DNA of 64,000 bases from an uncultured Rickettsiales bacterium. Lineage in GTDB: Bacteria > Myxococcota_A > UBA796 > UBA9615. Of this stretch, positions 17,489-28,148 are shown one piece after another. The notes beneath the pieces are model-generated. The model saw only the letters and a list, made by a program, of their open reading frames with translations. It was not told the DNA's origin and ran no database searches. Location: NCBI GenBank assembly GCA_964490445.1, contig CAZBDA010000010.1:7830-71829 (forward strand), written 5' to 3'. Position 1 is the first letter of the stretch; each line of letters opens with the position of its first letter. The position numbers and the translations under genes were made by a program.

Positions 17489-18796
17489 TCAGAGAGATCG
17501 CAGGAACGCGATCAACCGGGAACGTTCCACTGCATTCAATTCCAGGCCCCAGGGGTGCCCTGGCTCCTCGCGGGAAGGGTCGAAGAGATCTTCGAGGCTG
17601 GAGACCGCACCGTGGTGGAAGTACGGTGCGGTCCGTCCGACCCCGCGCAGACTCGGGATCCGGTAGTAGCCGGTTGCGCGCACCGGGCTCTCGCCGGCTG
17701 CTGGGTCCGTTCCCAGGGTCTGTAGCGAGACCAGGGTGTCGGAGGTGAAGGTCGGCGCTGTGTGACAGGTGTTGCAGCCCTGTTGGTCGAAGATCAGCGC
17801 TCCGGCAGCGCTGTCCTCTGTGGCCTTGCTGTGGGGAGCTGGTGGGGGCAGCCCCCGCAGGTAGGCCGCGACTGCCCAGCTGAGGACTCGCGGGATGCGG
17901 AATCGCTCGCTACCCGCGGTGATGAAGAGCGTCTCGCAGCGGATCGCCAGGGTGACGGTGCCTCGATGGTGCCAGTTGGCGTTCTGTTGCAGGTAGGGCT
18001 GGTCGGCGATGCCTCCCATGTCGGGGATCGCGTACGGATTAAAGACATCGTCCAGCAGCAGGTCGACGCGGCCGGGTCCCAGGCGATGCAGGTCGGCGAT
18101 GGGGCTGTCCTCGTCCTCGGGAAGGGGCACGTCGGGGTCGTGGCCCAGCGCCAGCAGAAAGGCGCGGCCGATGTCCATCTGCTTGTTGGCAAGCGTCGCC
18201 GAAGCGAGCCCTTCATCGTCTCGGGAGAAGTGACATTGGCTACAGGCGGGCGCGACCCGCGCCGCACCGCTCTCGCTCTCGAAGACTCGTAGGCCCATCC
18301 ACCGGCCGTTGTCCTCGATGAAGCCAACCTCCGTCAGCGCGCCGGGCAAGCTGACGAGCGTCTCGTACAGGGGGTCCGGGCGCAGTGGATATTCCTCCAT
18401 GACCCGTCGTCCCAGGTCCTGCCAGCCGGCCTCGTTGTCGGGGAGTGTGGCGGGGGAGAGGCTGGTCATCTGATCGCGGTGCATCTCGAGGCCGAGGCCC
18501 TGCTGGAGCCTCTCGACGTCCTCTGAGGTCAGGGGGCGTGAGGGGAGGTCCCGTTCCGGCAGGTTGTCCCATCCGGCACCCTCGACAGCGTAGGAGCCGA
18601 GGCGACGTTCAGCGTAAAAGTTGTCGGTTGTGAGTAGATCTCGTTCGAGAATGGCGCGGCGGTACGTGCTATCGCCGATGTACAACTCGGCGCTGTCGGG
18701 CAGGGGGTCGGGCCCGGGGGCCGGACCGCAGCTGCTCGCTGCCAGGATCGGCAATAACAGCAGCAGCGCCAGGCGCGCGGCACGGGGGGGCGTCAT
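17489..18796 (-). CDS. Di-haem cytochrome c peroxidase / MauG-family lipoprotein
   Basis: Signal/lipobox [24 protein letters not shown]. Two CxxCH haem motifs (CSQCH, CNTCH) about 150 aa apart. Start ATG 18796 overlaps the upstream gene's TGA (ATGA). The table ORF to 18988 would run 190 nt into the upstream gene. Confidence 0.7.
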   Translation of the reverse strand: MTPPRAARLALLLLLPILAASSCGPAPGPDPLPDSAELYIGDSTYRRAILERDLLTTDNFYAERRLGSYAVEGAGWDNLPERDLPSRPLTSEDVERLQQGLGLEMHRDQMTSLSPATLPDNEAGWQDLGRRVMEEYPLRPDPLYETLVSLPGALTEVGFIEDNGRWMGLRVFESESGAARVAPACSQCHFSRDDEGLASATLANKQMDIGRAFLLALGHDPDVPLPEDEDSPIADLHRLGPGRVDLLLDDVFNPYAIPDMGGIADQPYLQQNANWHHRGTVTLAIRCETLFITAGSERFRIPRVLSWAVAAYLRGLPPPAPHSKATEDSAAGALIFDQQGCNTCHTAPTFTSDTLVSLQTLGTDPAAGESPVRATGYYRIPSLRGVGRTAPYFHHGAVSSLEDLFDPSREEPGHPWGLELNAVERSRLIAFLRSL

Positions 18797-21030
18797 CGCT
18801 GCCTCCGTCGACCGATGGGCAGGAGGACGAGCAGGGCTGCGCTGAAGCCGCTGCCCGAGCAGTCGTAGCTGAGCCCACAGCCGCCCTGGTAGCAGCCTGG
18901 CTGGAGAAGGTGGTAGGAGCCGTCGTCGGCGATTTCCTCGTCTCCGGCTTCCGGGCGGGGTCCACTGCCGTCGGGACAGCGGTAACACGGTGCGTTAGAG
19001 GCGTCGCAGTAGGTGTCAGTGTAGCCGTCGTCTTGGGGCAGCGCGGGCTGAATGGGCCAGGAGTCGTTGTCGCAGTCGACCAGGTCCGGGTAGCCGTCGC
19101 CGTCGCCCCGATCAGCGAAGACGTCATAGCTGAGACGCACTGACTGGCAGCTTCCGCCTGTTGCCCCGGGTGCCTGGCCAGACGCGGAGTCGAGCACGAA
19201 GAACTCCGTCTGCCAGGGCCAGGGTTGCCCCAGCGCGGCGATCAACTCAGCGCTCGGCAGCCAGTGGACCGCCTGGTCGATGGCGCAGGGCAGGTCCACC
19301 CACGGCAAGGCATCGCAGGCATCGGCTGCTGACGAAGGGCAGGTCTGTCGGAAGCGCTCACAGTCGTCCAGGTTGTCGACCTTCGCAGCCGGCAGGAAAC
19401 CAGCTTCTCCGAAGGTCGGTGATGGGCCGAGCAGGGAGCGTGTTGCGTCGCCGTCCTCGGCAAACCAGAGGACAGGACTCGGAGAGGCGTTCATCGTGGT
19501 CGTGATCGAGGCGGGAGCGTCGGCGAACAGCAGTAGGGGCTCTTTGGGCCTGGGCTCGGTAGAGGGAACGAACAGGTTCCGAGCGGCGATGAACTGGCTG
19601 CCCGGTTGTCCGCCTTCCATCAGAAGCAGACGCGCGCCGCCGTTGTCCGCGAAGGTGTTCTGCAGCAGTTGGATGTCGACGTCGCTTCTGGCCGTGTCCA
19701 GCCGGAGGATGGGGCCCTCGCCGATGCTGTTGCCCACCACGAAAGTGTGGCTCAGGCTCACTCCCACGCTGGTGGTCGAGTCGTTTGGAGGGAGGAAGTC
19801 GAACAGCACTCCGCTGGCGGCCTCAGCGGTCGCTGCGGGTGCCGGTCGGTGCGCGTAGGGCTCAAGTTGGTCTCGGCCCGCACAGGACGGCAGTCCCTCG
19901 CCTCCCTGTGCTCCCCACAGTGCCGACTGGGCGGGCTCAGGTTGTTCACCCAGCAAGGACAGCACGTGACGATTGCGTGACACCACCGAGTTGCTCAGCC
20001 AGTGCCCCATGACCGGCAACAGTTCGCCTTCGGGTCCGGTGTCGACCACCAGCGCGGGGAGCGGCGTGCGGACCAGGGGTACGCCGGTCGTGAGTACGTT
20101 GGCAGCCAGCAGCGACCGATCGATTCTCTTGATGGTGCCGACGAGTAGCGCGAGTTGGTCGTTCTCTGCACTGAGCCCGGTGCCGTCTACGAGGTTACCG
20201 AACACGACGCTACTGACCATGTCGAGGCCGCCCTCTCCGCCGGCGCGCAGCAACGCCAACCCGTCTGCGAGGCTGGCAGGACTGAAGTGGCATCCGACGA
20301 CTTCGCTACGCACCATGATCACCTCGGCGCCGGACTGCAGCGCCACACCCCGGCAGCCCACGATGTGGCTGTCGCGGAGGCTCAGGTGAATGGGCGAGCC
20401 GTCCAGGCCGCTGGCGATGGCGTAGCCCTGAGAGCCGATGATCTCGGTGTCCTCGATAACAAGACCCGTGCTGCCCGAGGCTTCGATGCCGGGTCCGGTG
20501 TGGGCACAGTCGCTCCCCTGGCGGAGGTCCATGCGTACGGCAATCCGGTCCTGGGTGAGGCCGAAGTCGTCGCCCGTCTGCCAGGAGATCAGGGGGCCGC
20601 CGGGATCGCTTCCGTCAGAGCACAGGGTCGTGTCGTCGGTCTCGAGAACCAGGCCGTTCGCGTAGTGGCCGAATTGCTGTTGCCGGACGCTGACCTGTTC
20701 GTGGTGGTAGCTAGGGCCAGTGACGCAGATCCTGGCCGTCGGGCGTAGGCCACTTGCCGTTTCGGGTAGCGCGGCAGTGGCCTCGAGGGCTGCGGCGATG
20801 GTCGGTAGCAGGCCCGCCGTCGGATCGCAGTCCTGGCCGCAGCCGGCTGTTACCGGGCTGCCGTCCGAGACCACGCACAGGTTGTGCTCCTGCCCCCGTG
20901 CTGCTGCGGGAAGACAGAGCAGCAGCGCAAGCGTGAGCAGCGCAGGTCCGGTGGGCTGTGAGGCTGTCGACAAGTGCTCCTGGCTCCCCTCGAATGCCAG
21001 AGTACCGCGTTCCTGCCAGCGAAGCGCCAT
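18793..21030 (-). CDS. Secreted right-handed parallel beta-helix repeat protein with MYXO-CTERM-type C-terminal sorting signal
   Basis: N-terminal signal ([18 protein letters not shown]). Gly/Ser/Asn-rich beta-helix-type repeats ([45 protein letters not shown]). C-terminus [34 protein letters not shown] is a Cys/Gly region, hydrophobic helix and Arg cluster. Start could be an internal TTG nearer the signal peptide. Confidence 0.6.
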
Positions 21031-21160
21031 GGCAGCTGCCCGGCGCTGCGGCCGGTCGATGTCTTGCCCCTCGTTGTCCCGCGGATTGCTCGAACAAAGC
21101 GCCCTGCTCGGCTCTCAGATGGCCGGCCTGTTCGTGCCCTGGAAGCCCTTCACGGTGGCT

Positions 21161-21198
21161 TTGAAACATCTCGTAACAAGGCGAAACACACCGGTTAC
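21161..21198 (+). promoter_or_regulatory. Conserved 38-nt element E1 ttgaaacatctcgtaacaaggcgaaacacaccggttac, 79 nt upstream of the TSP3/VWA lipoprotein gene
   Basis: 33/38 identical to the reverse complement of 27608..27645. Direct repeats TGAAACA/CGAAACA are 21 nt apart. Internal inverted repeat GTAAC...GTTAC. Confidence 0.45.
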
Positions 21199-21276
21199 AG
21201 CGATTGCGCGAAGTTGCTTGTCGACGAGGGAACCCACTCTCGATTGCAACCGGGTCGCAGCGATGCACCCAGAAAG

Positions 21277-23046
21277 ATGAATACGATGCTTACGACTCGA
21301 AAGACGACTTGGAGCTGTTTACTCATGGCTCTGGCTCTTACCGGCTGTGAACTGCTGCCGGGATCTTCCAGCGGAGATGCAGGGAGCGCCGGGAGCGACG
21401 GTAGCACCAGCGTAGAGGTGGACTGTGGTGATGACGACAGTGATTCCGGCACCGACGTGATCGACGAGGGGTCCGTGGACGACTCCGATTCCAGTTCCTC
21501 GGCTGATGATGATGATAGCGACCTCGACGAGGGCGGCTCTGAGGGTGATAGCGAGGACGAAGCCGACGAAGAGGATCCCGACACCGATACCGACGGTGAC
21601 GGCATCTCCGATGTCGTCGAGGGCGATGTCGACACCGATGGGGACGGTCACGAAGACTGGATGGACACCGACTCGGACAATGACGGCATCAGCGACGCGG
21701 ACGAAGGCACCATCGATACCGACGGCGACGGCGTCCCTGACTACGTCGACAGCGACTCGGACAACGACGGCATCAGCGACGCGGACGAAGGCGACGTCGA
21801 CAGTGACGGCGACGGCGACCCCGACTATGTCGATAGCGACTCCGACAATGATGGCTCCAGCGACCTGGTCGAAGAAGTCGTCGGAACTGACCCGACCGAC
21901 CCCACCGACAACCCCCCGGACAATGGCGACCAGGTCATCGATGTCACCTCTGAGACCACCGTCAGCACCGACCTCATTACCACCACGACCAACTACCAGC
22001 AGTTGGACGTCTGGTTCCTGATGGATCGGACCTGCTCGATGGGCCAGGAGATCCAGGCGATGGCCGGTGCCGTGGTCGACATCGTCGACTCCCTGACCTG
22101 CGAAGGCTCCGGTGAGAGTTGTGTCGAGGACGCCAGTTGTGAGACGGGCGAGGTGTGTGGTTGGCAAGACGAGTGCATCGAAGACCCCGCGCTCGTGGGT
22201 TGTGTGCCGAGCTTCTGGTCCGGTGCGGGCACCTACCAGGACGACGGCTATCCGATCACGAACCTGGCCTCGATGAGCAGCGACCCGTCACTGACGGCCA
22301 GCATGATCCCCACCTCGATTGCCGGTGGCTCGCAGGAGAACCTGTTCCAGGCAGCGGCCTGTGTGGCGAACCCGGCAGCTTGTGGCCCCGAGGTAACCCT
22401 GGACTGCGCCGCGTATGGAATCGGCTGCCCTGGCTACCGCAACGAGTCCGTGCGGGTGCTGGTGCAGATTACCGACGAAGACGACCAGTCCAGCCCCCAG
22501 AGCTACAATGCCGCCATGGCCGGTGCTGCGCTGCAGGCGCACAATATCGAGTACATCGGCATTGACTGCGACACCAACAGCATGGGCCTTGCCGACCTGC
22601 AGGCAGTTGCTACCGAAGCGGGCTCCCTCGACGCGAACGGCGCGCCGCTGGTGTTCTCGGGTGTCGGTACTGAGGTGGTACCTACTGTCACCCAGGCTAT
22701 CCAGACACTGGTCGAGGACGTACCCGTAGAGGTCACGGTGACCGCCACGGATCTGCCTGGCGATTCCGGGGACTCCCTGGTGTTCCTCGACTACCTCGAG
22801 GTGGTCAGCGGCGTACAGGGCTGCACGGCCTCTCCTTCGATAGACACTGATGGGGACGGCTTCGCCGAGACCTACACCAGCGTTCTGCCTGGTACGACCG
22901 TCTGTTGGAGTTTCAATGTCGACAACAGCACGGCAGTGACTCCTACCGACGAGGTGCAGACTTTCGACATGCTGCTGACGATCACGGGCAACAACGCCGT
23001 GCTCGATGAGTACACGGTCACCTTCGTGGTTGGTCCGGCAAGCTGA
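21277..23046 (+). CDS. Lipoprotein with thrombospondin type-3-like Ca-binding repeats and a C-terminal VWA-like domain
   Basis: Lipobox [10 protein letters not shown]. Asp-rich [22 protein letters not shown] repeats. VWA-like core [12 protein letters not shown] (MIDAS DxTxS), [21 protein letters not shown] with a Cys-rich insertion. Table ORF starts at 20974; ATG 21277 fits the signal peptide. Confidence 0.6.
21581..21866 (+). repeat. Intragenic tandem repeats (~84 nt, ~3.4 copies) encoding TSP3-like DxDxDGxxDxxE units
   Basis: Successive near-identical segments gacagcgactcggacaa(c/t)ga(c/t)ggcatcagcgacgcggacgaaggc... encode [15 protein letters not shown](T/D)(I/V)D(T/S)DGDG. Confidence 0.7.
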
Positions 23047-23182
23047 ATCCCAGGCGATTCAATCGAACGCAGAGGCACCCATGAGCCGGGGCCCCGGGAC
23101 ATCCCGGAGCCTCGGCTCTGTGCTTGGCTCGCCGTTGGCGAGCTGTTCGGTGGCGGTCGTCACGCCGGCGGCGGATTTCGTC

Positions 23183-26100
23183 TTAGGAATCGAGCAGTCG
23201 CAGTAGCAAGCGCAACTCCACCGACCTCTTGCTCAGTTGCTGTAGTTGCTCTGCCGTCAGCGAGTTGGCTACGGAGAATGCAGGGTCGAGTTGCTGTGCA
23301 ACGACCGTACACAAGGCCTGCTCGACCTCCCCCTGAGCTTCTGCGAGCTGACCTGCTTCTGTGAGGCTCTCCAGCGCTCCCCCTGGATCCGAGAGGCGCG
23401 CGCGTGTCACGGCAAGTACGCAAAGAGCCTGCAGGCGTGCCTGGATCTGAGTCTCTGCCGTCAGGACCTCCATTGCAGCAGCCAATTGTGCTGAGGCTTC
23501 TTCGGCTGCTCCCAGCTGCAGGTGCGCAACCGCAAGGCCAACCTGTGTAATTGCGCCTCCGACAGCCCATCCTGAAGCGGCCAGGCCCGCCCTCCCTGCT
23601 TCCAGGTGGCGGATCGCCCTGGGCGCATTGCCAAGGTCCAGGTGGATGCGGCCGAGGATCCCTTGTGTGTGCGCAGATGCCACCGCATCACCCAGCAGCA
23701 GCGCTCGACGAGTACTTTCCTCGACAAGACGCTCTGCCTCGTCATGGCGCCCGAGGATCAGCACCACCTCTGCGAGCAGGCCGAGGCAGGCATAGGTGCT
23801 TCGTGGGTTGTCGAAGGCCTCGTGGATCTCGATAGCTTCGCGTAGGAAGCCCTCGGCTTCCTGAGGCATTCCCAGGTTGCAGTGCAGCACTCCGAGCCTG
23901 CGCAGGCAGTTGCCTTTGCGCCTCTGTAGACCCGAGTCGCTGGCGATCTCGAGTGCATTGCGAGCGTGCTTCTCGGCTTCTTTCATTCGGCCCTGCCACT
24001 CCGCAAAGTGGCTCATGTGCTGGTGTGCCAGCAGTCGATCCAGGGGCCTTCCCTGCGTTCCCACGGTCAACAGTGCGGTGCGGACCTGCCCTTCCGCCTG
24101 GGTGATGTGTCCCATGGGAATGAGCAGGCCTCCTGCGCGGTACAGGGAAGCTCGGGCAAGGAGCAAGGGGCGTAGGGAGTCTCGGGCAAGGGACTCGAGC
24201 AACTCGATGTCGTGTTCGACTTCGGCGAGCATGCCCCCTACTCGTCTCCGCCACAGTGCCCGCGCATAGAGCAGGTCGATCTGAGTTTCTGGGTTCTGTC
24301 GGCCCGAGTGCTCGAGAACCGAGTTCAAGAGCCGGTCATAGACGCCGGGGGGGCCACGTTCTTGCAGGATCGGCTCCAGCACGAGGGCGATGCGCACGGC
24401 GACATCACTTTCCCGCAAGGAGCACTCGCTTTCGATCTTCAGCAGGTTGTCGATCTCGAGTTCCAACAGGCGAGTGGCTTGGAGGCCCCTGCTGCCATCC
24501 CGCGAAGCAGCCAGTCGTTCTGCTTCGACCAGGTAGTAGTCCCTGTGTCGCTGTTTCAGCGCCCCCAGGCTGGTGAGCTCCGCGAGGTGTTCTGATGCGA
24601 AGAGATAGATGCTTTCGAAGAATGTGAAGCGTCGTAGACCCGTGACGCCGGGGACCTCGACACAGCGCAGCAGCGACTTGTCGACAAGGCCCTGGAGCAG
24701 ATCGAGGACCAGCGCGTCGCCGTGCGGAAATTCGATGACGGCCTCGGCCGCTTCAGCAGAAAAGCCGCCGGAGAAGATGGTCGTTTGTGCCAGCACGTGC
24801 TTCTCCTCGACACGGAGAAGCTGCCAGGACCATTCAATGGCACCGCGAAGGGTGGTGGTGCGGTCCTTGTCGCTGGCTCGGTTGGCGCGGAGCAGTTCGA
24901 AACGCTGCGTCAGGCGCTGGCGGAGTTGTTGGGTGGACAACATTCGGATCCGTGCTGCAGCCAACTCGACTGCAAGGGGGATCCGGTCCAGTTCTTTGAC
25001 GACGGTTCGGATGTCGTCCATGCCCTGCTCGTCGGGCTGGAAGTCGTAGCGAAGCTCTCGCGCGCGTTCCATGAACAGTGCGACGGCCGGCTCCTCGTCC
25101 AGGGGCGCCAGTTCGTAGACCCTCTCGCCGGGTACGTTGAGCAGCGCCTGGGAAGTCACCAGGAAGCGGGCACCTGGCGCAGCTTGGAGCCATGCAGCGA
25201 CCACTTCGCCCGAGGACTCCACCAACTGCTCGAAGTTGTCCAGCAGGACGAGGCAGGGCCCTCGGTTGGCCAACTCGTCGCTGATGGCTTCGACGTCGTC
25301 ATCCGCGGTGGTGCTGGCCATCGCGATGCCGAGTCCCGCCGCGACTGCCCTGATCATGCCCTCCTTGTCACGGGCTGCCTGGAGGTCGCAGAACCACGAG
25401 GAGGCCTCGCCCAGTAGTGTAGGTGCCCGCTGTTCGGCGAAGACCCGCGCCAGCAGGGTCTTGCCCATGCCGCCGGGCCCGGTGAGCGTGACGAGTCGGG
25501 CCCCTGTCTCGAACAACTCCTGTAGAGCCGCCAGAGAACGCTCCCGGCCCTGGACAACGCGGCCATCGAGGGTGATGACCGAAAGCTCCTGGGTGGAATC
25601 CCCGCCGGTCGCAAGGCTCGCTGCGGGGGCCTCGGGAACGGCTGGGCTCGGAGCCACGGGCGGCTCCTCGTCGGATGGCGGCTCGAAGCGGTAGCCCTGG
25701 CCATGCACTGTCAGAATGAAGCGAGGCTCTGCCGGGTTGGGCTCGATCTTCTTGCGGAGCCGCCGAACCGCGACATCGACAGCCCGGGTTACGACTCGCC
25801 CGCGGATTCCCCAGACGTCCCGCATCAGTTGATCTCTGGTGATCACGCGCCCGGGGTTGGTGGCCAGGTATCTCAGCAGGCTGGCTTCGTTGGTAGTGAG
25901 GCCTTCGTGCTGCTCTCCCAGGTGCACCTCTTCTCTCGCGAGATCTACCTGGCAGTGGCCCAGGTCCAGCGTTTCCAGGGGAACGCGATTAATGGAGCTG
26001 CCGCCGAGCCGGTCCAGGGCATCGAGCAGCTCGCCACAGGATCCCAGGCGCTCCTGTTCGTTGGTCTTTCCCATCTGCCGCAACAGGTCTACGAGGCCAG

Positions 26101-26908
26101 CGGGTGCGCCCGCTTCTTCCAGCGCTGCTGGACTTGCCTGGCGTGCCCGCACCTCTCGACCCAGCAGCAGGGCCTCTCCGATGCGTGCCAACGAGTAGAT
26201 GTCGTCGTGAACGGTGCTTTGCAGCCTGTCGCTTTTCGTATTGGGAGCCAGGTAGGGCAGGTCCTCTTCAGCGATGGGCTCGGCGAGGGCTCCCAGCCGA
26301 CCAAAATCGAGCAGCTTCACGTCGTCCCGCTCGGTAATGAAGATGACCGACGGCTCCAGCAGACCGTGGCTGAGTCCCATTCCGTGCGCGTGCCCCAGTG
26401 CTTCCGCGAGGGTGCGGAAGATGCGTAGCACCCGGCGTACGCTGAGGATCTCGCTGCTGTCTGCGAGTCGTTCTCTGAGGCTGCGTCCCTGGACCAAATC
26501 GACGACCAGCGCGCACAGCTCGCCGTCTTCTATGAAGTCCAGGACGCGAACGATGTGCGGATGCCGCAGGCGGGCCAGCAGAGCTGCTTCCCGTCGCAAC
26601 TCCTCGCGAACCTCGTCGAGGTGGGTGAGGTGAGGATGGAGCACCTTGACGGCGGCTTGTAGGCCGGAAACGAATCGGTGCGTGCCCCGATAGACAGTGG
26701 TACGGGAGCCCACGCCGAGGACTTCTGAGAGTTCATATCCGCCGATTTGCTGTACCACTGTCAAACAGATAGCACGACATGCTGCCGCGGCACGATCCAC
26801 GGGAGCAGACAGCCGCATCTTGCCTGCGCCAAGTAGAGACGCCCGAATCGCGTGCGACTCGGGCGTCCCGCAAGGGGGGCGTTGCTCCAGCGGAGCTGCT
26901 GCTAGCAA
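23183..26908 (-). CDS. STAND-class regulator: degenerate Ser/Thr kinase (pseudokinase) domain + OmpR/PhoB-type winged-helix DNA-binding domain + NB-ARC P-loop NTPase + TPR repeats
   Basis: Kinase fold markers are present (G-loop GVGSRTT, AVKVL Lys, alphaC Glu, DFG in KLLDFG). The catalytic loop reads HGLLEPSV instead of HRDLKPEN, and APE becomes APN. Winged helix: EASLLRYLATNPGRVITRDQLMRDVWG...RAVDVAVRRLRKKIEPNP...ILTVHGQGYRF. NB-ARC: Walker A LTGPGGMGKT, Walker B LVLLDNFE, sensor-I-like FLVTSQ, GLPLA-like RIPLAVEL. TPR-like helical repeats follow to the C-terminus. Alternative start ATG 26821. Confidence 0.75.
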   Translation of the reverse strand: MLAAAPLEQRPPCGTPESHAIRASLLGAGKMRLSAPVDRAAAACRAICLTVVQQIGGYELSEVLGVGSRTTVYRGTHRFVSGLQAAVKVLHPHLTHLDEVREELRREAALLARLRHPHIVRVLDFIEDGELCALVVDLVQGRSLRERLADSSEILSVRRVLRIFRTLAEALGHAHGMGLSHGLLEPSVIFITERDDVKLLDFGRLGALAEPIAEEDLPYLAPNTKSDRLQSTVHDDIYSLARIGEALLLGREVRARQASPAALEEAGAPAGLVDLLRQMGKTNEQERLGSCGELLDALDRLGGSSINRVPLETLDLGHCQVDLAREEVHLGEQHEGLTTNEASLLRYLATNPGRVITRDQLMRDVWGIRGRVVTRAVDVAVRRLRKKIEPNPAEPRFILTVHGQGYRFEPPSDEEPPVAPSPAVPEAPAASLATGGDSTQELSVITLDGRVVQGRERSLAALQELFETGARLVTLTGPGGMGKTLLARVFAEQRAPTLLGEASSWFCDLQAARDKEGMIRAVAAGLGIAMASTTADDDVEAISDELANRGPCLVLLDNFEQLVESSGEVVAAWLQAAPGARFLVTSQALLNVPGERVYELAPLDEEPAVALFMERARELRYDFQPDEQGMDDIRTVVKELDRIPLAVELAAARIRMLSTQQLRQRLTQRFELLRANRASDKDRTTTLRGAIEWSWQLLRVEEKHVLAQTTIFSGGFSAEAAEAVIEFPHGDALVLDLLQGLVDKSLLRCVEVPGVTGLRRFTFFESIYLFASEHLAELTSLGALKQRHRDYYLVEAERLAASRDGSRGLQATRLLELEIDNLLKIESECSLRESDVAVRIALVLEPILQERGPPGVYDRLLNSVLEHSGRQNPETQIDLLYARALWRRRVGGMLAEVEHDIELLESLARDSLRPLLLARASLYRAGGLLIPMGHITQAEGQVRTALLTVGTQGRPLDRLLAHQHMSHFAEWQGRMKEAEKHARNALEIASDSGLQRRKGNCLRRLGVLHCNLGMPQEAEGFLREAIEIHEAFDNPRSTYACLGLLAEVVLILGRHDEAERLVEESTRRALLLGDAVASAHTQGILGRIHLDLGNAPRAIRHLEAGRAGLAASGWAVGGAITQVGLAVAHLQLGAAEEASAQLAAAMEVLTAETQIQARLQALCVLAVTRARLSDPGGALESLTEAGQLAEAQGEVEQALCTVVAQQLDPAFSVANSLTAEQLQQLSKRSVELRLLLRLLDS

Positions 26909-27513
26909 TCCCAGGTGACGGTAACCTGCTCGACTTCGCCGTCGCCGTTGAAGGTTGCCGAGACGTCGATGCAGCGAGCAAGGAAGCCGGCGATTGCCCA
27001 GGCAAGCGGGTGGCCTGCAGGCTCATCGCCCCACACCACGCCGCTGATCTCGAGGAACTCGACCAGAAGTAGGGGATTGGTGACTGCCGTTATTGCCGAG
27101 GAATAGTCGACAAGGGAGGTGACCAGCGCATCCTCGCGGGTCTGTTCGACGAGACCCTGATCGTCGAATACCACCAAGCCCGCGCTCGTTCCGGCATAGC
27201 CGACGATAAAGTTGCCGCGAGCGTCGTATACCGACAGCGAGCCGGCATGGGAGTCTCCCTCCAGTTCGACGATGAAGATCTCGTTGTCCGCGAGGATTGC
27301 GAAGCTGTCGGCAGCCTCGGGTTCGCGGTGATACCAGGCGAGTTGCAGGTTCACTTCGGGAGTCGTGGAGGTATTCTCGGGACGCTCGCTTGTTGCATTT
27401 CGGTCGTCTTGCTCGGGTGCCTGGCTCCTGGGTGTGGCGCCGGCAACAGAGAGCAGGCCACCGAGAATGAAGGTGGGGATTAGGGTAAGAATCGTCAGGG
27501 CCTTCGAGTTCAT
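26902..27513 (-). CDS. Secreted hypothetical protein (signal peptide), unknown function
   Basis: MNSKALTILTLIPTFILGGLLSVAGA signal peptide. No recognisable domain. Its stop lies about 1 nt before the STAND gene ATG, so they are probably co-transcribed. The conserved 38-nt element lies about 95 nt upstream. Confidence 0.45.
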   Translation of the reverse strand: MNSKALTILTLIPTFILGGLLSVAGATPRSQAPEQDDRNATSERPENTSTTPEVNLQLAWYHREPEAADSFAILADNEIFIVELEGDSHAGSLSVYDARGNFIVGYAGTSAGLVVFDDQGLVEQTREDALVTSLVDYSSAITAVTNPLLLVEFLEISGVVWGDEPAGHPLAWAIAGFLARCIDVSATFNGDGEVEQVTVTWDC

Positions 27514-27607
27514 CTTGTTCTCCTTGCCTTGAGTGCTGAGTCTCAGGGTCAGTTGTCGTTTTGGTCGTGGCCACTGCCATCGACTCCCGGAGCATTACCC
27601 ACGAGGA

Positions 27608-27645
27608 GTAACCAGGGTGTTTCGCCTTGTTACCGGGTGTTTCAA
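27608..27645 (-). promoter_or_regulatory. Conserved 38-nt element E2 (minus-strand ttgaaacacccggtaacaaggcgaaacaccctggttac), ~95 nt upstream of the secreted-protein/STAND-regulator operon
   Basis: Same orientation and similar distance to its downstream gene as E1. Out-of-frame table ORFs 20974..(+) and 27023..27802(-) share E-T-x-x-NKAKH-x-GYS, translated from this motif. Confidence 0.45.
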
Positions 27646-27689
27646 TGAGAGACTGCTCTACAAGGAACCATCCACAGAAGGACTTGCCG

Positions 27690-28148
27690 ATGGCAGGGGA
27701 ACGCAAGATCTGGGTCGATGCTGATGCCACTCCCCGTCCCGTGAAAGAGGTTCTCTTCCGGGCCGCCGAGCGTCGGGGCGTCGCTGTACTGCTTGTGGCC
27801 AATCGCTGGTTTCCGCATCCTCGGCACGCATTGGTCGGCTTCGTGCAGGTCGAGCAGGGACCCGACGAAGCTGACCACTACATCGCCGAGCATGCCGGGC
27901 CAGGTGACCTGGTAGTGACTGCCGACATTCCTCTCGCAGCCCGCGTGATTGCCAGTGGCGTAGCTGTCATTCAGCCGCACGGACGCGAACTCGACGCCGA
28001 AAGTATCGACGAAGCCCTGGCGCTGCGAGATTTCAAGGAGGCTTTGCGCGACTCAGGCACGATGACCGGTGGCCCGCCGCCGTTCAGCGCGAAGCACAAG
28101 CAGCGCTTCTCGAATGCATTGGACCGCTGGGTCAGCGCTCGTCGCTAG
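27690..28148 (+). CDS. YaiI/YqgE-like UPF0178 (DUF188) protein
   Basis: KIWVDADATPRPVKEVLFRAAERRGVAVLLVAN matches the KIWVDADACP...VKE start of the YaiI family from memory. ATG 27690 was chosen within the longer table ORF. Confidence 0.7.
   Translation: MAGERKIWVDADATPRPVKEVLFRAAERRGVAVLLVANRWFPHPRHALVGFVQVEQGPDEADHYIAEHAGPGDLVVTADIPLAARVIASGVAVIQPHGRELDAESIDEALALRDFKEALRDSGTMTGGPPPFSAKHKQRFSNALDRWVSARR

What the first reader, a model, noticed from the sequence alone, without database searches (positions are those of the whole stretch)
23183..26908. Pseudokinase fused to OmpR-type winged helix, NB-ARC ATPase and TPR: a STAND transcription-factor architecture
The N-terminal ~270 aa have every structural landmark of a Hanks-type Ser/Thr kinase (G-loop, VAIK Lys, alphaC Glu, DFG, APE-like segment). 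The catalytic loop HRDLKPEN is replaced by HGLLEPSV, so the catalytic Asp, the Lys and the Asn are all lost. The APE motif reads APN. I infer a dead kinase kept as a scaffold or sensor. It is followed directly by a canonical OmpR/PhoB trans_reg_C winged helix (LLRYLATNPGRVITRDQL...VDVAVRRLRKKIE...GQGYRF). There is no BTAD domain between them. Next comes an NB-ARC module (Walker A GPGGMGKT, hhhhDN Walker B, TSQ sensor, RIPLAVEL ~ GLPLA). About 600 aa of TPR-like repeats finish the protein. AfsR/SARP regulators share the wHTH + NB-ARC + TPR part. An N-terminal pseudokinase in that position is something I have not seen described. The gene sits in a probable operon with a small secreted protein and is flanked by genes carrying a shared upstream motif (next finding).
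Basis: partly seen in the sequence, partly recalled or inferred. Interest (0 to 1): 0.7.

Follow-up and report, generated by a model that had tools for sequence, protein, structure and literature searches.

The report
Dead-kinase STAND transcription factor with operator
A 1,191-residue bacterial regulator joins a catalytically dead protein-kinase domain to a DNA-binding domain, an ATP-driven switch and a repeat sensor; it always sits beside secreted-protein genes that carry a conserved three-repeat DNA site it probably binds, which makes it a rare but directly testable variant of a known regulator class.

Summary
Window 23183-26758 (-) encodes Hanks-type kinase fold, OmpR/PhoB winged helix, NB-ARC-like NOD and arm/TPR, in that order.

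The catalytic loop reads HGLLEPSV. The HRD Asp, the loop Lys and the loop Asn are lost; the beta3 Lys, alphaC Glu and DFG remain. All 11 family members lack the HRD Asp, and the deepest clade also lost the Lys and the DFG Asp. By contrast, 181 of 182 kinase domains from relatives without this fusion keep the Asp.

The fusion is rare. Only three representatives among 1.84 billion proteins match across both domains, all from marine metagenomes or MAGs labelled Deltaproteobacteria.

New here: a 38-nt site, three direct G(A/T)AACA hexamers 10 bp apart plus an inverted copy. It lies about 90-130 nt upstream of the adjacent small secreted-protein gene and of a TSP3-repeat lipoprotein gene. It recurs next to the regulator in every family locus and nowhere in 880 kb of control loci.

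Best reading: a STAND transcription factor whose ancestral kinase output was replaced by DNA binding, with the dead kinase kept as a structural or regulatory module. It is a new variant of a known kind (AfsR, MalT, PknK-like STANDs). The pseudokinase's role and the inducing signal are unknown.

The parts
23183..26758 (-). Regulator gene (1191 aa plus stop): pseudokinase, wHTH, NOD, arm/TPR. No transmembrane segment.
   Evidence: ORF; 100% identical 1191-aa JGI gene call P0001; homologues start at the same place; maximum Kyte-Doolittle 19-mer 1.38
26003..26758 (-). Pseudokinase domain (residues 1-252), complete Hanks-type fold
   Evidence: Pfam Pkinase E 3e-22; AF2 model pLDDT 90.6 with all kinase secondary-structure elements; best PDB match M. 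tuberculosis PknI at 31% identity, then PknB and PknA
26345..26368 (-). Degenerate catalytic loop HGLLEPSV in place of HRDLKPxN (Asp to Leu, Lys to Glu, Asn to Val)
   Evidence: the same position reads HGQ, HGR, HGE or HGA in all other family members
25679..25975 (-). OmpR/PhoB-type winged helix (residues 262-360); recognition helix VDVAVRRLRKK at 25748-25780
   Evidence: Pfam Trans_reg_C E 2e-25; PDB hits YycF, MtrA, PhoB and OmpR at E 1e-14; best-conserved domain across clades at 58-63%
24584..25573 (-). NOD (NBD-HD-WHD; residues 396-725): Walker A GPGGMGKT 25457-25480, Walker B LLDNFEQ 25226-25246, sensor-I position VTSQ 25148-25159, IPLAVEL (GxP-like) 24962-24982
   Evidence: AAA_22, AAA_16 and weak NB-ARC; AF2 pLDDT 94; Foldseek hits to NRC3, CED-4, Apaf-1 and ZAR1; motif coordinates
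23186..24583 (-). Arm plus TPR sensor region (residues 726-1191)
   Evidence: TPR_12 x3 and other TPR models; TPR_MalT in orthologues; most divergent region between clades at 28-40%
26902..27513 (-). Small secreted protein gene (203 aa; signal peptide; two conserved Cys; ends WDC). No known family. Conserved neighbour of the regulator.
   Evidence: Orthologues 34-55% identical lie next to the regulator in L004, L007, L012, L095 and L102; no Pfam or NCBIfam hit
27608..27645 (-). Operator-like site 1: TTGAAACAcccgGTAACAaggcGAAACAccctgGTTAC, 95-132 nt upstream of the small gene's ATG
   Evidence: conserved at the same position in all family loci
21161..21198 (+). Operator-like site 2: TTGAAACAtctcGTAACAaggcGAAACAcaccgGTTAC, 88-125 nt upstream of the lipoprotein gene's ATG
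21286..23046 (+). TSP3-repeat lipoprotein gene (586 aa; lipobox LTGC; acidic Ca-binding repeats; C-terminal domain with DxTxS). Second candidate target.
   Evidence: an orthologue (70% identical C-terminal domain) is the divergent neighbour of the clade-3 regulator, with a hexamer array between them

Best explanation
The gene encodes a cytoplasmic STAND-type transcription factor.

Shown:
- The domains are an intact kinase fold without catalytic-loop residues, an OmpR/PhoB winged helix, an NB-ARC-like NOD with intact Walker A and B, and an arm/TPR region.
- The fusion forms a small, old family of three clades. In all of them the kinase is degenerate.
- Every family locus carries, next to the regulator, an array of three direct G(A/T)AACA hexamers at 10-bp spacing, usually followed by an inverted copy. 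The array lies about 100-130 nt upstream of a secreted-protein gene.

Inferred:
- A ligand or protein sensed by the TPR region releases autoinhibition. The NOD exchanges ADP for ATP and multimerises, as in MalT and AfsR.
- Multimerisation brings several winged helices together. They occupy the phased hexamers, which lie over or just upstream of the -35 region, and activate transcription. In the window the targets would be the small secreted protein gene, probably with read-through into the regulator itself, and the TSP3-repeat lipoprotein gene.
- In evolution the protein descends from the widespread kinase-NOD-TPR proteins, in which the kinase is the output. After a winged helix was inserted between kinase and NOD, the output became DNA binding and catalysis was lost.
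- The kinase fold was retained under purifying selection for a non-catalytic job. The most likely job is an oligomerisation or autoinhibition scaffold that positions the closely tethered winged helix. Because the deepest clade has also lost the ATP-site Lys and DFG Asp, nucleotide binding is unlikely to be the conserved function.
For: Architecture.

Dead catalytic loop as a family trait. All 11 wHTH-bearing members lack the HRD Asp and the loop Asn (one, P0009, has Asp at the Asn position). 181 of the other 182 kinase domains keep the Asp, including the closest outside relative P0010 (HRDLKPDN).

Clade 3 (P0246) is 41% identical over its full length and has K to T, HGA and DFG to GFG.

Purifying selection on the pseudokinase: 41-48% identity to clade 2, where arm/TPR is 28-33%; more than 60 invariant positions.

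Chimeric origin:
- The kinase is closest to P0010.
- The NOD is closest to kinase-NOD-TPR proteins (45%).
- The wHTH is closest to wHTH-NOD-TPR proteins (51-54%).

Rarity: only 3 single-stretch kinase+wHTH matches among 1.84 billion representatives, and 2 of 185,579 GTDB species genomes.

Operator:
- Two copies in the window against 0 expected.
- The strict pattern hits only family loci among 95 loci.
- It is conserved in position and orientation in L004, L095, L007, L012, L102, L009 and L011, with invariant hexamers and variable spacers.
- There are no hits in 880 kb of non-family loci, nor in the loci of the active paralogue (L131) or of a kinase-less wHTH-NOD-TPR relative (L132).
- Clade 3 has GTTACA-N4-GCGACA-N4-GCGACA together with an Arg to Gly change in the recognition helix.

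Precedent for direct repeats at one helical turn overlapping the -35, bound by an OmpR-type domain of a NOD-TPR regulator: AfsR (PMC10936776). STAND activation scheme: PMC4381067 and PMC6468293.
Against: No experiment exists, and no transcription start site is known. A sigma-70 consensus scan found no promoter.

Binding of this protein to the hexamers is inferred from linkage and from the repeat geometry only. Another OmpR-family regulator or an ECF-type promoter (AAC-rich -35) could use the site.

The small secreted neighbours of clades 1 and 2 are not detectably homologous (hhalign probability 1.9%). The 'same target' argument therefore rests on position and the shared operator.

In L012 the small gene is convergent with the regulator, so an operon is not obligatory.

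The scaffold role of the pseudokinase is a guess:
- The N-terminal model gives no confident kinase-wHTH orientation (pTM 0.72, linker pLDDT below 50).
- In the window's protein the Lys, alphaC Glu and DFG Asp are all retained, so nucleotide binding in this clade is not excluded.
- The sensor-I Arg of the NOD is Gln here, with unknown effect on the ATP cycle.
Confidence: 0.62

Rival explanations
1. The pseudokinase is a docking or heterodimerisation module for an active paralogous kinase. A kinase-NOD-TPR paralogue or another Hanks kinase pairs with it (kinase/pseudokinase dimer) or phosphorylates the regulator. The transcription factor would then be controlled by Ser/Thr phosphorylation, much as AfsK controls AfsR, but with the recognition module built in. 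This is compatible with the transcription-factor model and differs only in what the dead kinase does.
For: P0010 is the closest outside relative of the pseudokinase (36-37% identity, intact HRDLKPDN/DFG/APE). It is encoded in the same MAG (GCA_002724675.1) as family member P0005. AfsR is phosphorylated by AfsK, AfsL and PkaG, and this changes its ATPase activity and oligomerisation (PMC10936776). The most strongly conserved stretch of the pseudokinase is alphaC-beta4 (LARLRHPxIxRVLDFxExG). In my recollection this is a region used for kinase dimerisation in PknB and RAF/KSR.
Against: No kinase gene is linked to the family loci. Co-occurrence of an active paralogue was seen in one MAG only. No conserved Ser/Thr acceptor was identified. 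No interaction data exist.
Confidence: 0.2
2. The kinase-like domain is still an enzyme or a nucleotide sensor. It either phosphorylates by a non-canonical mechanism or binds ATP/ADP as an allosteric input to the STAND switch.
For: In the window's protein the beta3 Lys, alphaC Glu and DFG Asp are retained. In clade 2 the HRD-Asp position is Glu, and P0009 has Asp at the Asn position. From my own knowledge, several 'pseudokinases' have turned out to be active or nucleotide-binding (CASK, SelO and SidJ-type chemistry).
Against: The residues replacing the catalytic Asp (L, Q, R, E, A), the Lys (E, A, S, T, D) and the Asn (V, G, T, A, D, K) are not conserved, so there is no conserved substitute chemistry. 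Clade 3 has lost the Lys and the DFG Asp as well. Clade 2 has lost the alphaC Glu. The activation segment is short and its APE is degenerate. The closest solved relative, PknI, was described as adopting an 'inactive, pseudokinase-like conformation' (title of Lisa et al. 2017, seen in the reference list of PMC9512850).
Confidence: 0.1
3. The hexamer array is not this protein's operator. It would be the site of another regulator or part of an ECF-sigma promoter, and the regulator's true targets lie elsewhere.
For: No binding data exist. AAC-containing -35 boxes are typical of ECF promoters (own knowledge). A second conserved element, GTCGATGGC-N4-GCCACGAC, lies about 25 nt downstream, showing that more than one factor may act here.
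Against: The array is found only at family loci and always within about 150 nt of a gene flanking the regulator, whatever the gene order or orientation. Three direct repeats at 10-bp phasing are the classic geometry for OmpR/PhoB-type domains. The spacing from any hexamer to the GTCG element (23-33 nt) does not fit a -35/-10 pair. The hexamer sequence changes in the one clade whose recognition helix changes.
Confidence: 0.12
4. It is an anti-phage STAND (Avs/bNACHT-like) immune sensor in which the dead kinase is an integrated decoy.
For: It has a STAND NTPase core. The PADLOC library gives kinase-domain hits to PD-T4-6, MkoA, Mad6 and PglW. Plant NLRs use pseudokinase partners (for example ZED1/ZAR1, PMC6634424).
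Against: The PADLOC hits cover only the generic kinase fold (residues 3-260), not the NOD. There is no nuclease, protease, TIR or other killing effector; the output domain is a well-conserved winged helix with a linked operator. The neighbours are secreted or surface proteins, not defence genes. The family is single-copy with stable synteny rather than sitting in a variable island.
Confidence: 0.04

Closest known systems
AfsR ('large' SARP) of Streptomyces coelicolor
   Same: It combines an OmpR-type DNA-binding domain, a NOD, an arm and a TPR in one polypeptide. It binds direct repeats spaced by one helical turn that overlap the -35. It is controlled by the ATP state of the NOD and has a functional link to Hanks-type kinases (PMC10936776).
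   Different: AfsR has a BTAD after the wHTH, which is absent here. AfsR has no kinase-like domain; its kinases act in trans. The sequence relation is weak (NCBIfam AfsR model 43.9 bits against a cut-off of 1430, TPR region only). The wHTH here is closer to response-regulator types (YycF, MtrA, PhoB). The lineage also differs: marine 'Deltaproteobacteria' MAGs against Actinobacteria.
Kinase-NOD-TPR STAND proteins (the PknK type of M. tuberculosis; very common in Chloroflexota, Myxococcota, Planctomycetota and Actinobacteria)
   Same: They have an N-terminal Hanks kinase, then a NOD, then a TPR. They hold the closest relatives of this protein's kinase and NOD modules (P0010, P0018, P0022). PknK is listed among STANDs in PMC4381067.
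   Different: Their kinases keep HRD..N and DFG and are the output domain. They have no winged helix between kinase and NOD. Some carry a C-terminal LuxR-type HTH instead.
BTAD-less wHTH-NOD-TPR regulators (e.g. P0011-P0016, about 990 aa, uncharacterised)
   Same: They have the same wHTH (48-54% identical), NOD (about 39%) and TPR layout, from similar environmental 'Deltaproteobacteria'.
   Different: They have no N-terminal kinase-like domain. The locus examined (L132) has no hexamer array.
MalT of E. coli
   Same: It is a STAND transcription factor. Inducer plus ATP drive multimerisation and cooperative binding to repeated sites (PMC4381067, PMC6468293, PMC10427625).
   Different: Its DNA-binding domain is a C-terminal LuxR-type HTH. 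Its sensor is SUPR rather than classical TPR, and it has no kinase-like domain.
M. tuberculosis PknI kinase domain
   Same: It is the closest solved structure by sequence and by fold (31% identity, E 1e-17). It also has a short activation segment and an atypical G-loop, and was described as 'inactive, pseudokinase-like' (Lisa et al. 2017 title).
   Different: PknI retains HRD and is a membrane-anchored stand-alone kinase. It is not fused to DNA-binding or NOD modules.
P0358 (wHTH-kinase-NOD-TPR, 1315 aa) and P0363 (kinase-REC-wHTH, 547 aa), uncharacterised database proteins
   Same: They are the only other Hanks-kinase/OmpR-wHTH fusions among the top 150 hits of the exhaustive search. P0358 also has a NOD and TPR.
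   Different: The domain order differs. Their kinases keep the catalytic Asp and Asn (HLDLKPGN, HRDLKPAN) and DFG.

Membership tests
Catalytically competent Hanks-type Ser/Thr kinase | Catalytic-loop Asp (HRD) and Asn (HRDxxxxN) | tested here: not met
   HGLLEPSV aligns to HRDVNPAN and HRDLKPxN: Asp to Leu, Asn to Val
Catalytically competent Hanks-type Ser/Thr kinase | beta3 Lys, alphaC Glu, DFG Asp (ATP/Mg site) | tested here: met
   K38, E56 and D151-F-G are present in the window's protein. They are lost in clade 3, and the Glu is lost in clade 2.
Protein-kinase fold (Pfam Pkinase) | Profile match above the gathering score and a bilobal fold | tested here: met
   79.6 bits against a cut-off of 31.7; AF2 pLDDT 90.6; PknI, PknB and PknA are the top structural hits
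OmpR/PhoB winged-helix DNA-binding domain (Trans_reg_C) | Profile match above the gathering score; beta-sheet, three helices and a wing | tested here: met
   89 bits against a cut-off of 26.2; PDB hits to YycF, MtrA, PhoB and OmpR; predicted secondary structure matches
OmpR/PhoB winged-helix DNA-binding domain (Trans_reg_C) | Binds phased direct repeats | not testable with these tools
   A candidate site with three direct hexamers at 10-bp spacing is linked to every family locus, but binding was not measured.
STAND NTPase, NB-ARC/AP-ATPase type NOD | Walker A (GxxGxGKT) and Walker B (hhhhD) | tested here: met
   GPGGMGKT and LVLLDNFEQ; G, K, T and D are invariant in 100 aligned relatives
STAND NTPase, NB-ARC/AP-ATPase type NOD | NBD-HD-WHD three-subdomain fold | tested here: met
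   AF2 pLDDT 94, pTM 0.90; Foldseek hits to NRC3, CED-4, Apaf-1 and ZAR1, E 1e-12 to 1e-10, about 360 aligned columns
STAND NTPase, NB-ARC/AP-ATPase type NOD | Pfam NB-ARC profile above the gathering score | tested here: not met
   18.3 bits against a cut-off of 23.5. The sequence is nearer to AAA_22/AAA_16 and the bacterial MalT/AfsR-like NODs.
STAND NTPase, NB-ARC/AP-ATPase type NOD | ATP-dependent oligomerisation | not testable with these tools
   Requires biochemistry.
SARP (Streptomyces antibiotic regulatory protein) family | OmpR-type wHTH followed by a BTAD domain | tested here: not met
   No PF03704 hit at E<=1. Only about 35 Pro/Ala-rich residues separate the wHTH and the NOD. It is therefore not filed as a SARP.
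TPR-sensor STAND (MalT/AfsR/PH0952-like layout) | C-terminal TPR or TPR-like repeats after an arm | tested here: met
   TPR_12 64.6 bits against a cut-off of 30.1, three stretches; TPR_MalT in orthologues
Known anti-phage defence STANDs (PADLOC models) | Match of the NOD/sensor to an Avs or other defence model, or a linked killing effector | tested here: not met
   Only kinase-domain matches (residues 3-260); no effector domain

The most novel reading that the evidence does not exclude
The dead kinase is not a mere relic. It would be the input or checkpoint of the switch, in one of two ways:
- an integrated pseudokinase that pairs with an active kinase-NOD-TPR paralogue of the same genome to form mixed oligomers;
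- a bait whose modification or binding by a partner licenses the NOD.

One STAND hub would then couple Ser/Thr-kinase signalling directly to transcription of secreted or surface proteins. This would be a bacterial counterpart of the kinase/pseudokinase-NLR pairs of plants, but wired to gene expression instead of cell death.
Probability: 0.12. Interest if true: 0.75.

Novelty: new variant of a known kind. Interest (0 to 1): 0.5.

Why it matters
STAND proteins are modular switches whose N-terminal 'effector' domain decides the output. This family looks like a caught-in-the-act case of output replacement. A kinase-output STAND acquired a DNA-binding domain, lost catalysis, and yet kept the kinase fold through three diverging clades. 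That makes it a clean natural system for asking what a bacterial pseudokinase does when it cannot phosphorylate.

The linked, conserved operator and two candidate target genes make the question directly testable by EMSA, reporters and domain deletions, without first having to find the regulon.

The finding also adds a BTAD-less, non-actinobacterial relative to the AfsR/MalT class of STAND transcription factors. It points to a small set of orphan secreted proteins as the regulated output in uncultured marine bacteria.

Its reach is limited. The family is tiny and its hosts are uncultured, the signal is unknown, and nothing here overturns how STAND regulators are thought to work.

Tried and rejected
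- **Remote homology between the two kinds of small secreted neighbour** (about 200 aa ending WDC, against 164/187 aa). hhalign gave probability 1.9%, so it is not supported.
- **Family assignment of the small proteins and the lipoprotein C-terminal domain.** Pfam and NCBIfam gave nothing.
- **Structure prediction of the small protein** with its four orthologues. The job went to the N-terminal region instead.
- **A degenerate wHTH remnant in the active paralogue P0010**, suggested by the MAFFT alignment. There was no Trans_reg_C among the 25 best families shown (of 40 at E<=5) and no BLAST match. I dropped the idea.
- **Sigma-70 promoter and terminator scan.** It found no promoter, and terminators were at chance level.
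- **Rfam on 20900-27800.** No RNA family matched.
- **PADLOC.** Only generic kinase-fold hits.
- **Metagenome scan with the hexamer pattern to find distal regulon members.** Of 34 hits, 30 were unrelated 10-bp satellite arrays in low-GC contigs. The 4 real ones were further family loci. No extra targets were found.
- **ECF-promoter reading of the motif.** The spacing to the conserved GTCG element is 23-33 nt and does not fit.
- **Literature searches** for a described kinase/pseudokinase-wHTH-STAND fusion found nothing relevant. The two survey papers most likely to mention it (Perez et al. 2008, Kwon et al. 2019) are not held, so 'undescribed' is not proven.
- **Taxonomy beyond the MAG labels** could not be resolved.

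Full report

The window has one long ORF at 23183-26908 on the minus strand. Coordinates below are those of the 1211-aa version starting at ATG 26818.

| Pfam model | Residues | Score |
|---|---|---|
| Pkinase | 28-225 | E 3e-22, above cut-off |
| Trans_reg_C | 306-378 | E 2e-25, above cut-off |
| AAA_22 / AAA_16 / NACHT / NB-ARC | 422-665 | NB-ARC 18.3 bits, cut-off 23.5 |
| TPR_12 (three stretches) | about 930-1150 | 64.6 bits, cut-off 30.1 |

No BTAD domain appears even at E<=1. NCBIfam gives only partial matches to PASTA kinases, to OmpR-family response regulators and, weakly in the TPR region, to AfsR.

All homologues begin 4-9 residues before the IGGYEL strand, and an independent JGI gene call of the identical protein is 1191 aa. 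The start is therefore GTG 26758 (or TTG 26764). From here on, residue numbers refer to the 1191-aa protein. It has no transmembrane segment.

**2. The kinase domain is a pseudokinase, and this is a family trait.**

The alignment to solved kinases puts HGLLEPSV opposite PknI HRDVNPAN. Three residues are therefore replaced:

- the catalytic Asp is Leu;
- the loop Lys is Glu;
- the Mg-binding Asn is Val.

The beta3 Lys (K38), alphaC Glu and DFG Asp remain. The third G-loop Gly is Thr and 'APE' reads APN.

An AlphaFold2 model of residues 1-385 is confident (mean pLDDT 90.6). It shows every element of the bilobal fold, with a short activation segment. Its nearest solved structures are M. tuberculosis PknI (31% identity), PknB and PknA. 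PknI is itself the kinase described as having an 'inactive, pseudokinase-like conformation' (Lisa et al. 2017; title seen).

The same loop reads HGQ, HGR, HGE or HGA in every other protein with this architecture. In contrast, 181 of the 182 other kinase domains keep the Asp, including all kinase-NOD-TPR relatives. The residues that replace Asp, Lys and Asn vary between members, so no shifted or substitute catalytic residue is conserved.

The most divergent member, P0246, is 41% identical over its full length. It has additionally lost the beta3 Lys (Thr) and the DFG Asp (GFG). Clade 2 has lost the alphaC Glu. The fold, not the ATP site, is what is conserved.

The domain is nevertheless under constraint. 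It is 41-48% identical between clades 1 and 2, where the arm/TPR region is 28-33%. It has more than 60 invariant positions, densest in alphaC-beta4.

**3. The other modules.**

*Winged helix.* It is of the response-regulator type; the best PDB matches are YycF, MtrA, PhoB and OmpR at about 1e-14. It is the best-conserved part of the protein, 58-63% identical across clades. Only about 10 residues separate it from the last kinase helix. That linker is the one low-confidence stretch of the model, and pTM is 0.72, so the relative orientation of the two domains is not predicted.

*NOD.* The sub-threshold NB-ARC call was tested by structure. With a 100-sequence alignment, residues 386-800 fold with pLDDT 94 and pTM 0.90. 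The best PDB matches are plant NRC3, CED-4, Apaf-1 and ZAR1 (E 1e-12 to 1e-10, about 360 aligned columns, TM about 0.6), followed by Orc/Cdc6. So the core is a genuine NBD-HD-WHD NOD. Walker A (GPGGMGKT) and Walker B (LLDNFEQ) are intact. The sensor-I Arg of nearly all relatives is Gln here (VTSQ).

*Arm/TPR.* This region covers about 465 residues, not about 600.

**4. How rare is it, and where does it come from?**

- In the 5.8-billion-protein collection, only nine clusters (P0001-P0009, 41-100% identical) combine Pkinase and Trans_reg_C with the NOD and TPR. The next hits have either the kinase or the winged helix, never both.
- A search with the kinase+wHTH half alone added only one fragment, P0121.
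- An exhaustive profile search of 1.84 billion representatives found just three proteins matching across both domains in one stretch: P0003, P0121 and the new deep clade P0246.
- Two other arrangements surfaced. P0358 is wHTH-kinase-NOD-TPR and P0363 is kinase-REC-wHTH. Both have intact-looking catalytic loops.
- Among 185,579 GTDB species genomes, only two MAGs carry the full architecture: 'Deltaproteobacteria bacterium' UBA6601 and Tara Red Sea RS363. A third NCBI MAG carries P0004.
- All sources are marine metagenomes. I could not confirm the Myxococcota assignment.

Module by module:

| Module | Closest outside relative | Identity |
|---|---|---|
| Kinase | P0010, an active kinase-NOD-TPR protein | 37% |
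| NOD | kinase-NOD-TPR proteins | 45% |
| Winged helix | BTAD-less wHTH-NOD-TPR proteins | 51-54% |

The simplest history is a kinase-output STAND that acquired a winged helix between kinase and NOD and then lost catalysis. P0010 is encoded in the same MAG as family member P0005, so an active paralogue can coexist with the pseudokinase version.

**5. Surroundings: a conserved operator-like site and conserved secreted-protein neighbours.**

*Small secreted neighbour.* Immediately upstream on the same strand lies a 203-aa ORF (26902-27513). It has a signal peptide, two conserved Cys, a C-terminal WDC and no known family.

- Orthologues 34-55% identical sit directly upstream of the regulator in L004, L007, L095 and L102. 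In UBA6601 (L012) the orthologue is convergent downstream.
- In clade 2 a different small secreted protein (164/187 aa) is adjacent: divergent in L009, downstream in L011. I could not show it to be homologous to the first kind.

*The motif in the window.* A repeat search found a 38-nt sequence present twice in the window, 87% identical:

- 27645-27608 (-), 95-132 nt upstream of the small gene's ATG;
- 21161-21198 (+), 88-125 nt upstream of the ATG of a TSP3-repeat lipoprotein gene.

The lipoprotein gene's true start is probably 21286, which gives a lipobox LTGC. A 28-nt core of the motif matches exactly at both places, against 0.00 expected.

The site is TTGAAACA-N4-GTAACA-N4-GAAACA-N5-GTTAC. 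That is three direct G(A/T)AACA hexamers at 10-bp spacing, followed by an inverted copy.

*The motif in other loci.*

- The strict three-hexamer pattern occurs in 10 of 95 loci held at that point. All 10 are family loci, and every hit is upstream of the small gene or the lipoprotein gene.
- With one substitution allowed, it is also present at the equivalent position in L007, L012, L009 and L011. This includes the clade whose secreted neighbour is different.
- In the alignment the hexamers are invariant while the spacers vary. This is the signature of a protein-binding site rather than of recent common descent.
- A scan of JGI metagenomes returned four further genuine copies, all at family loci; the other 30 hits were unrelated satellite DNA.
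- The pattern is absent from 880 kb of non-family loci, including the loci of the active paralogue (L131) and of a kinase-less wHTH-NOD-TPR relative (L132).

*Clade 3.* In L096 the divergent neighbour of the regulator is the orthologue of the window's TSP3 lipoprotein (70% identical C-terminal domain). The intergenic region carries GTTACA-N4-GCGACA-N4-GCGACA, oriented towards it. This is also the only clade with an Arg to Gly change in the recognition helix (VAVRRL to IAVGRL). That is a single, suggestive case of co-variation.

**6. Most likely mechanism.**

*Shown:* the architecture, the family-wide catalytic degeneration, the intact NOD motifs and fold, and the strict linkage of regulator, hexamer array and secreted-protein gene.

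*Inferred, by analogy with MalT and AfsR (PMC4381067, PMC6468293, PMC10936776):*

- In the resting state the TPR/arm holds the NOD closed.
- An unknown inducer opens it. ATP replaces ADP and the protein multimerises.
- The clustered winged helices occupy the phased hexamers over or just upstream of the -35 and recruit RNA polymerase.

AfsR gives the closest precedent. Its OmpR-type domain binds 11-bp direct repeats overlapping the -35, and its NOD state modulates activity.

In the window the outputs would be the small secreted protein and the TSP3-repeat lipoprotein. The regulator lies 143 nt downstream of the small gene, with no terminator signal above chance expectation between them. Positive autoregulation by read-through is therefore plausible but unproven.

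The pseudokinase is most simply a retained effector-domain scaffold. It may provide oligomer contacts or hold the closely tethered winged helix in an off state. I rate this part of the model at no better than even odds.

**7. Rivals.**

- *Docking site for an active kinase.* The dead kinase may pair with an active paralogue; one coexists in at least one MAG, and AfsR is regulated by AfsK in trans. This is compatible with the transcription-factor model (about 0.2).
- *Residual enzyme or nucleotide sensor.* The window's protein keeps Lys, Glu and DFG. However, the family does not conserve any substitute chemistry, and clade 3 lost the ATP site (about 0.1).
- *The hexamers belong to another factor.* This is possible but hard to square with the exclusive linkage and the clade-3 co-variation (about 0.12).
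- *Anti-phage STAND with a decoy kinase.* PADLOC matches only the generic kinase fold. There is no killing effector and the context is not a defence island (about 0.04).

**8. Comparison with what is known, and novelty.**

- It works like a STAND transcription factor of the AfsR/MalT kind.
- It is not a SARP, because the BTAD was tested and is absent.
- It is not a competent Hanks kinase, because the catalytic Asp and Asn were tested and are absent.
- It is a member of the OmpR-type wHTH and NOD-TPR STAND superfamilies.
- N-terminal kinases on STAND cores are common (PknK type). Many also carry a C-terminal LuxR HTH, and one database protein has wHTH-kinase-NOD-TPR with an intact kinase (P0358).

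What is new is the specific arrangement (pseudokinase-wHTH-NOD-TPR), the consistent loss of catalysis that accompanies it, and the linked operator and targets.

My literature searches found no description of it.

I class it as a new variant of a known kind and of moderate interest (0.5). It is a neat, testable example of effector replacement and pseudokinase retention in a bacterial STAND. It occurs in a tiny family from uncultured marine bacteria, and its signal is unknown.

Noticed in passing
window 27564-27584 (-), and the equivalent positions in L004, L007, L009, L011, L012 and L095: A second conserved element, GTCGATGGC-N4-GCCACGAC (a near-palindrome), lies about 25 nt downstream of the hexamer array. 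GTCG is invariant in all eight aligned upstream regions. It could be another operator, the start-site region or a 5'-UTR element. The two arms do not covary as an RNA stem would, and no Rfam family matched.
   Followed up: partly
window 21286-23046 (+); L096 4036-5784 (-): The TSP3-repeat protein is a lipoprotein (lipobox LTGC). Its start was mis-called by both the ORF list (GTG 20974) and the JGI call (542 aa). Its C-terminal 370-aa domain has no family hit but carries a DxTxS motif ([13 protein letters not shown]) reminiscent of a vWA MIDAS site. The domain is 70% identical to that of the neighbour of the clade-3 regulator.
   Followed up: partly
L095 1621-2520; L004 8723-13246; L009 15833-18215: Copper-related genes recur near family loci. 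An MbnB/TglH/ChrH (DUF692) gene lies two genes upstream of the small secreted gene in L095. MopE-type copper-binding proteins lie in L004 and L009, and a Cu2 monooxygenase lies in L009. A link between the regulator and copper is possible but untested.
   Followed up: no
window 25148-25159 (-), residues 534-537: The sensor-I Arg of the NOD (LVTSR in nearly all relatives and in clade 3) is Gln (VTSQ) in clades 1 and 2. This might slow ATP hydrolysis.
   Followed up: no
L131 6001-9471 (PBPL01000104.1) and L008/L013 (PBPL01000155.1), both in GCA_002724675.1: P0010, an active-looking kinase-NOD-TPR paralogue and the closest outside relative of the pseudokinase, is in the same MAG as family member P0005.
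   Followed up: partly
window 21031-21285: Operator-like site 2 lies in a divergent intergenic region. The 745-aa gene on the other side (18793-21030, -; no family hit) starts 131 nt from the site and could also be controlled from it.
   Followed up: no
L097-L130 (for example L105 and L111; contigs Ga01050xx): Long arrays of a 10-bp satellite (ACACTGCAAC) occur in low-GC metagenome contigs. They matched the hexamer pattern by chance and are unrelated to this family.
   Followed up: no
L011 223-681: An ORF upstream of the clade-2 regulator P0008 is made almost entirely of a GIAAR pentapeptide (15-nt) tandem repeat. It is probably not a real gene.
   Followed up: no
window 26773-26789 (-): A short hairpin followed by a T-rich run lies between the non-conserved ATG 26818 and the likely start GTG 26758 of the regulator. 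The scan found terminator-like sites only at chance frequency, so its meaning is unclear.
   Followed up: no
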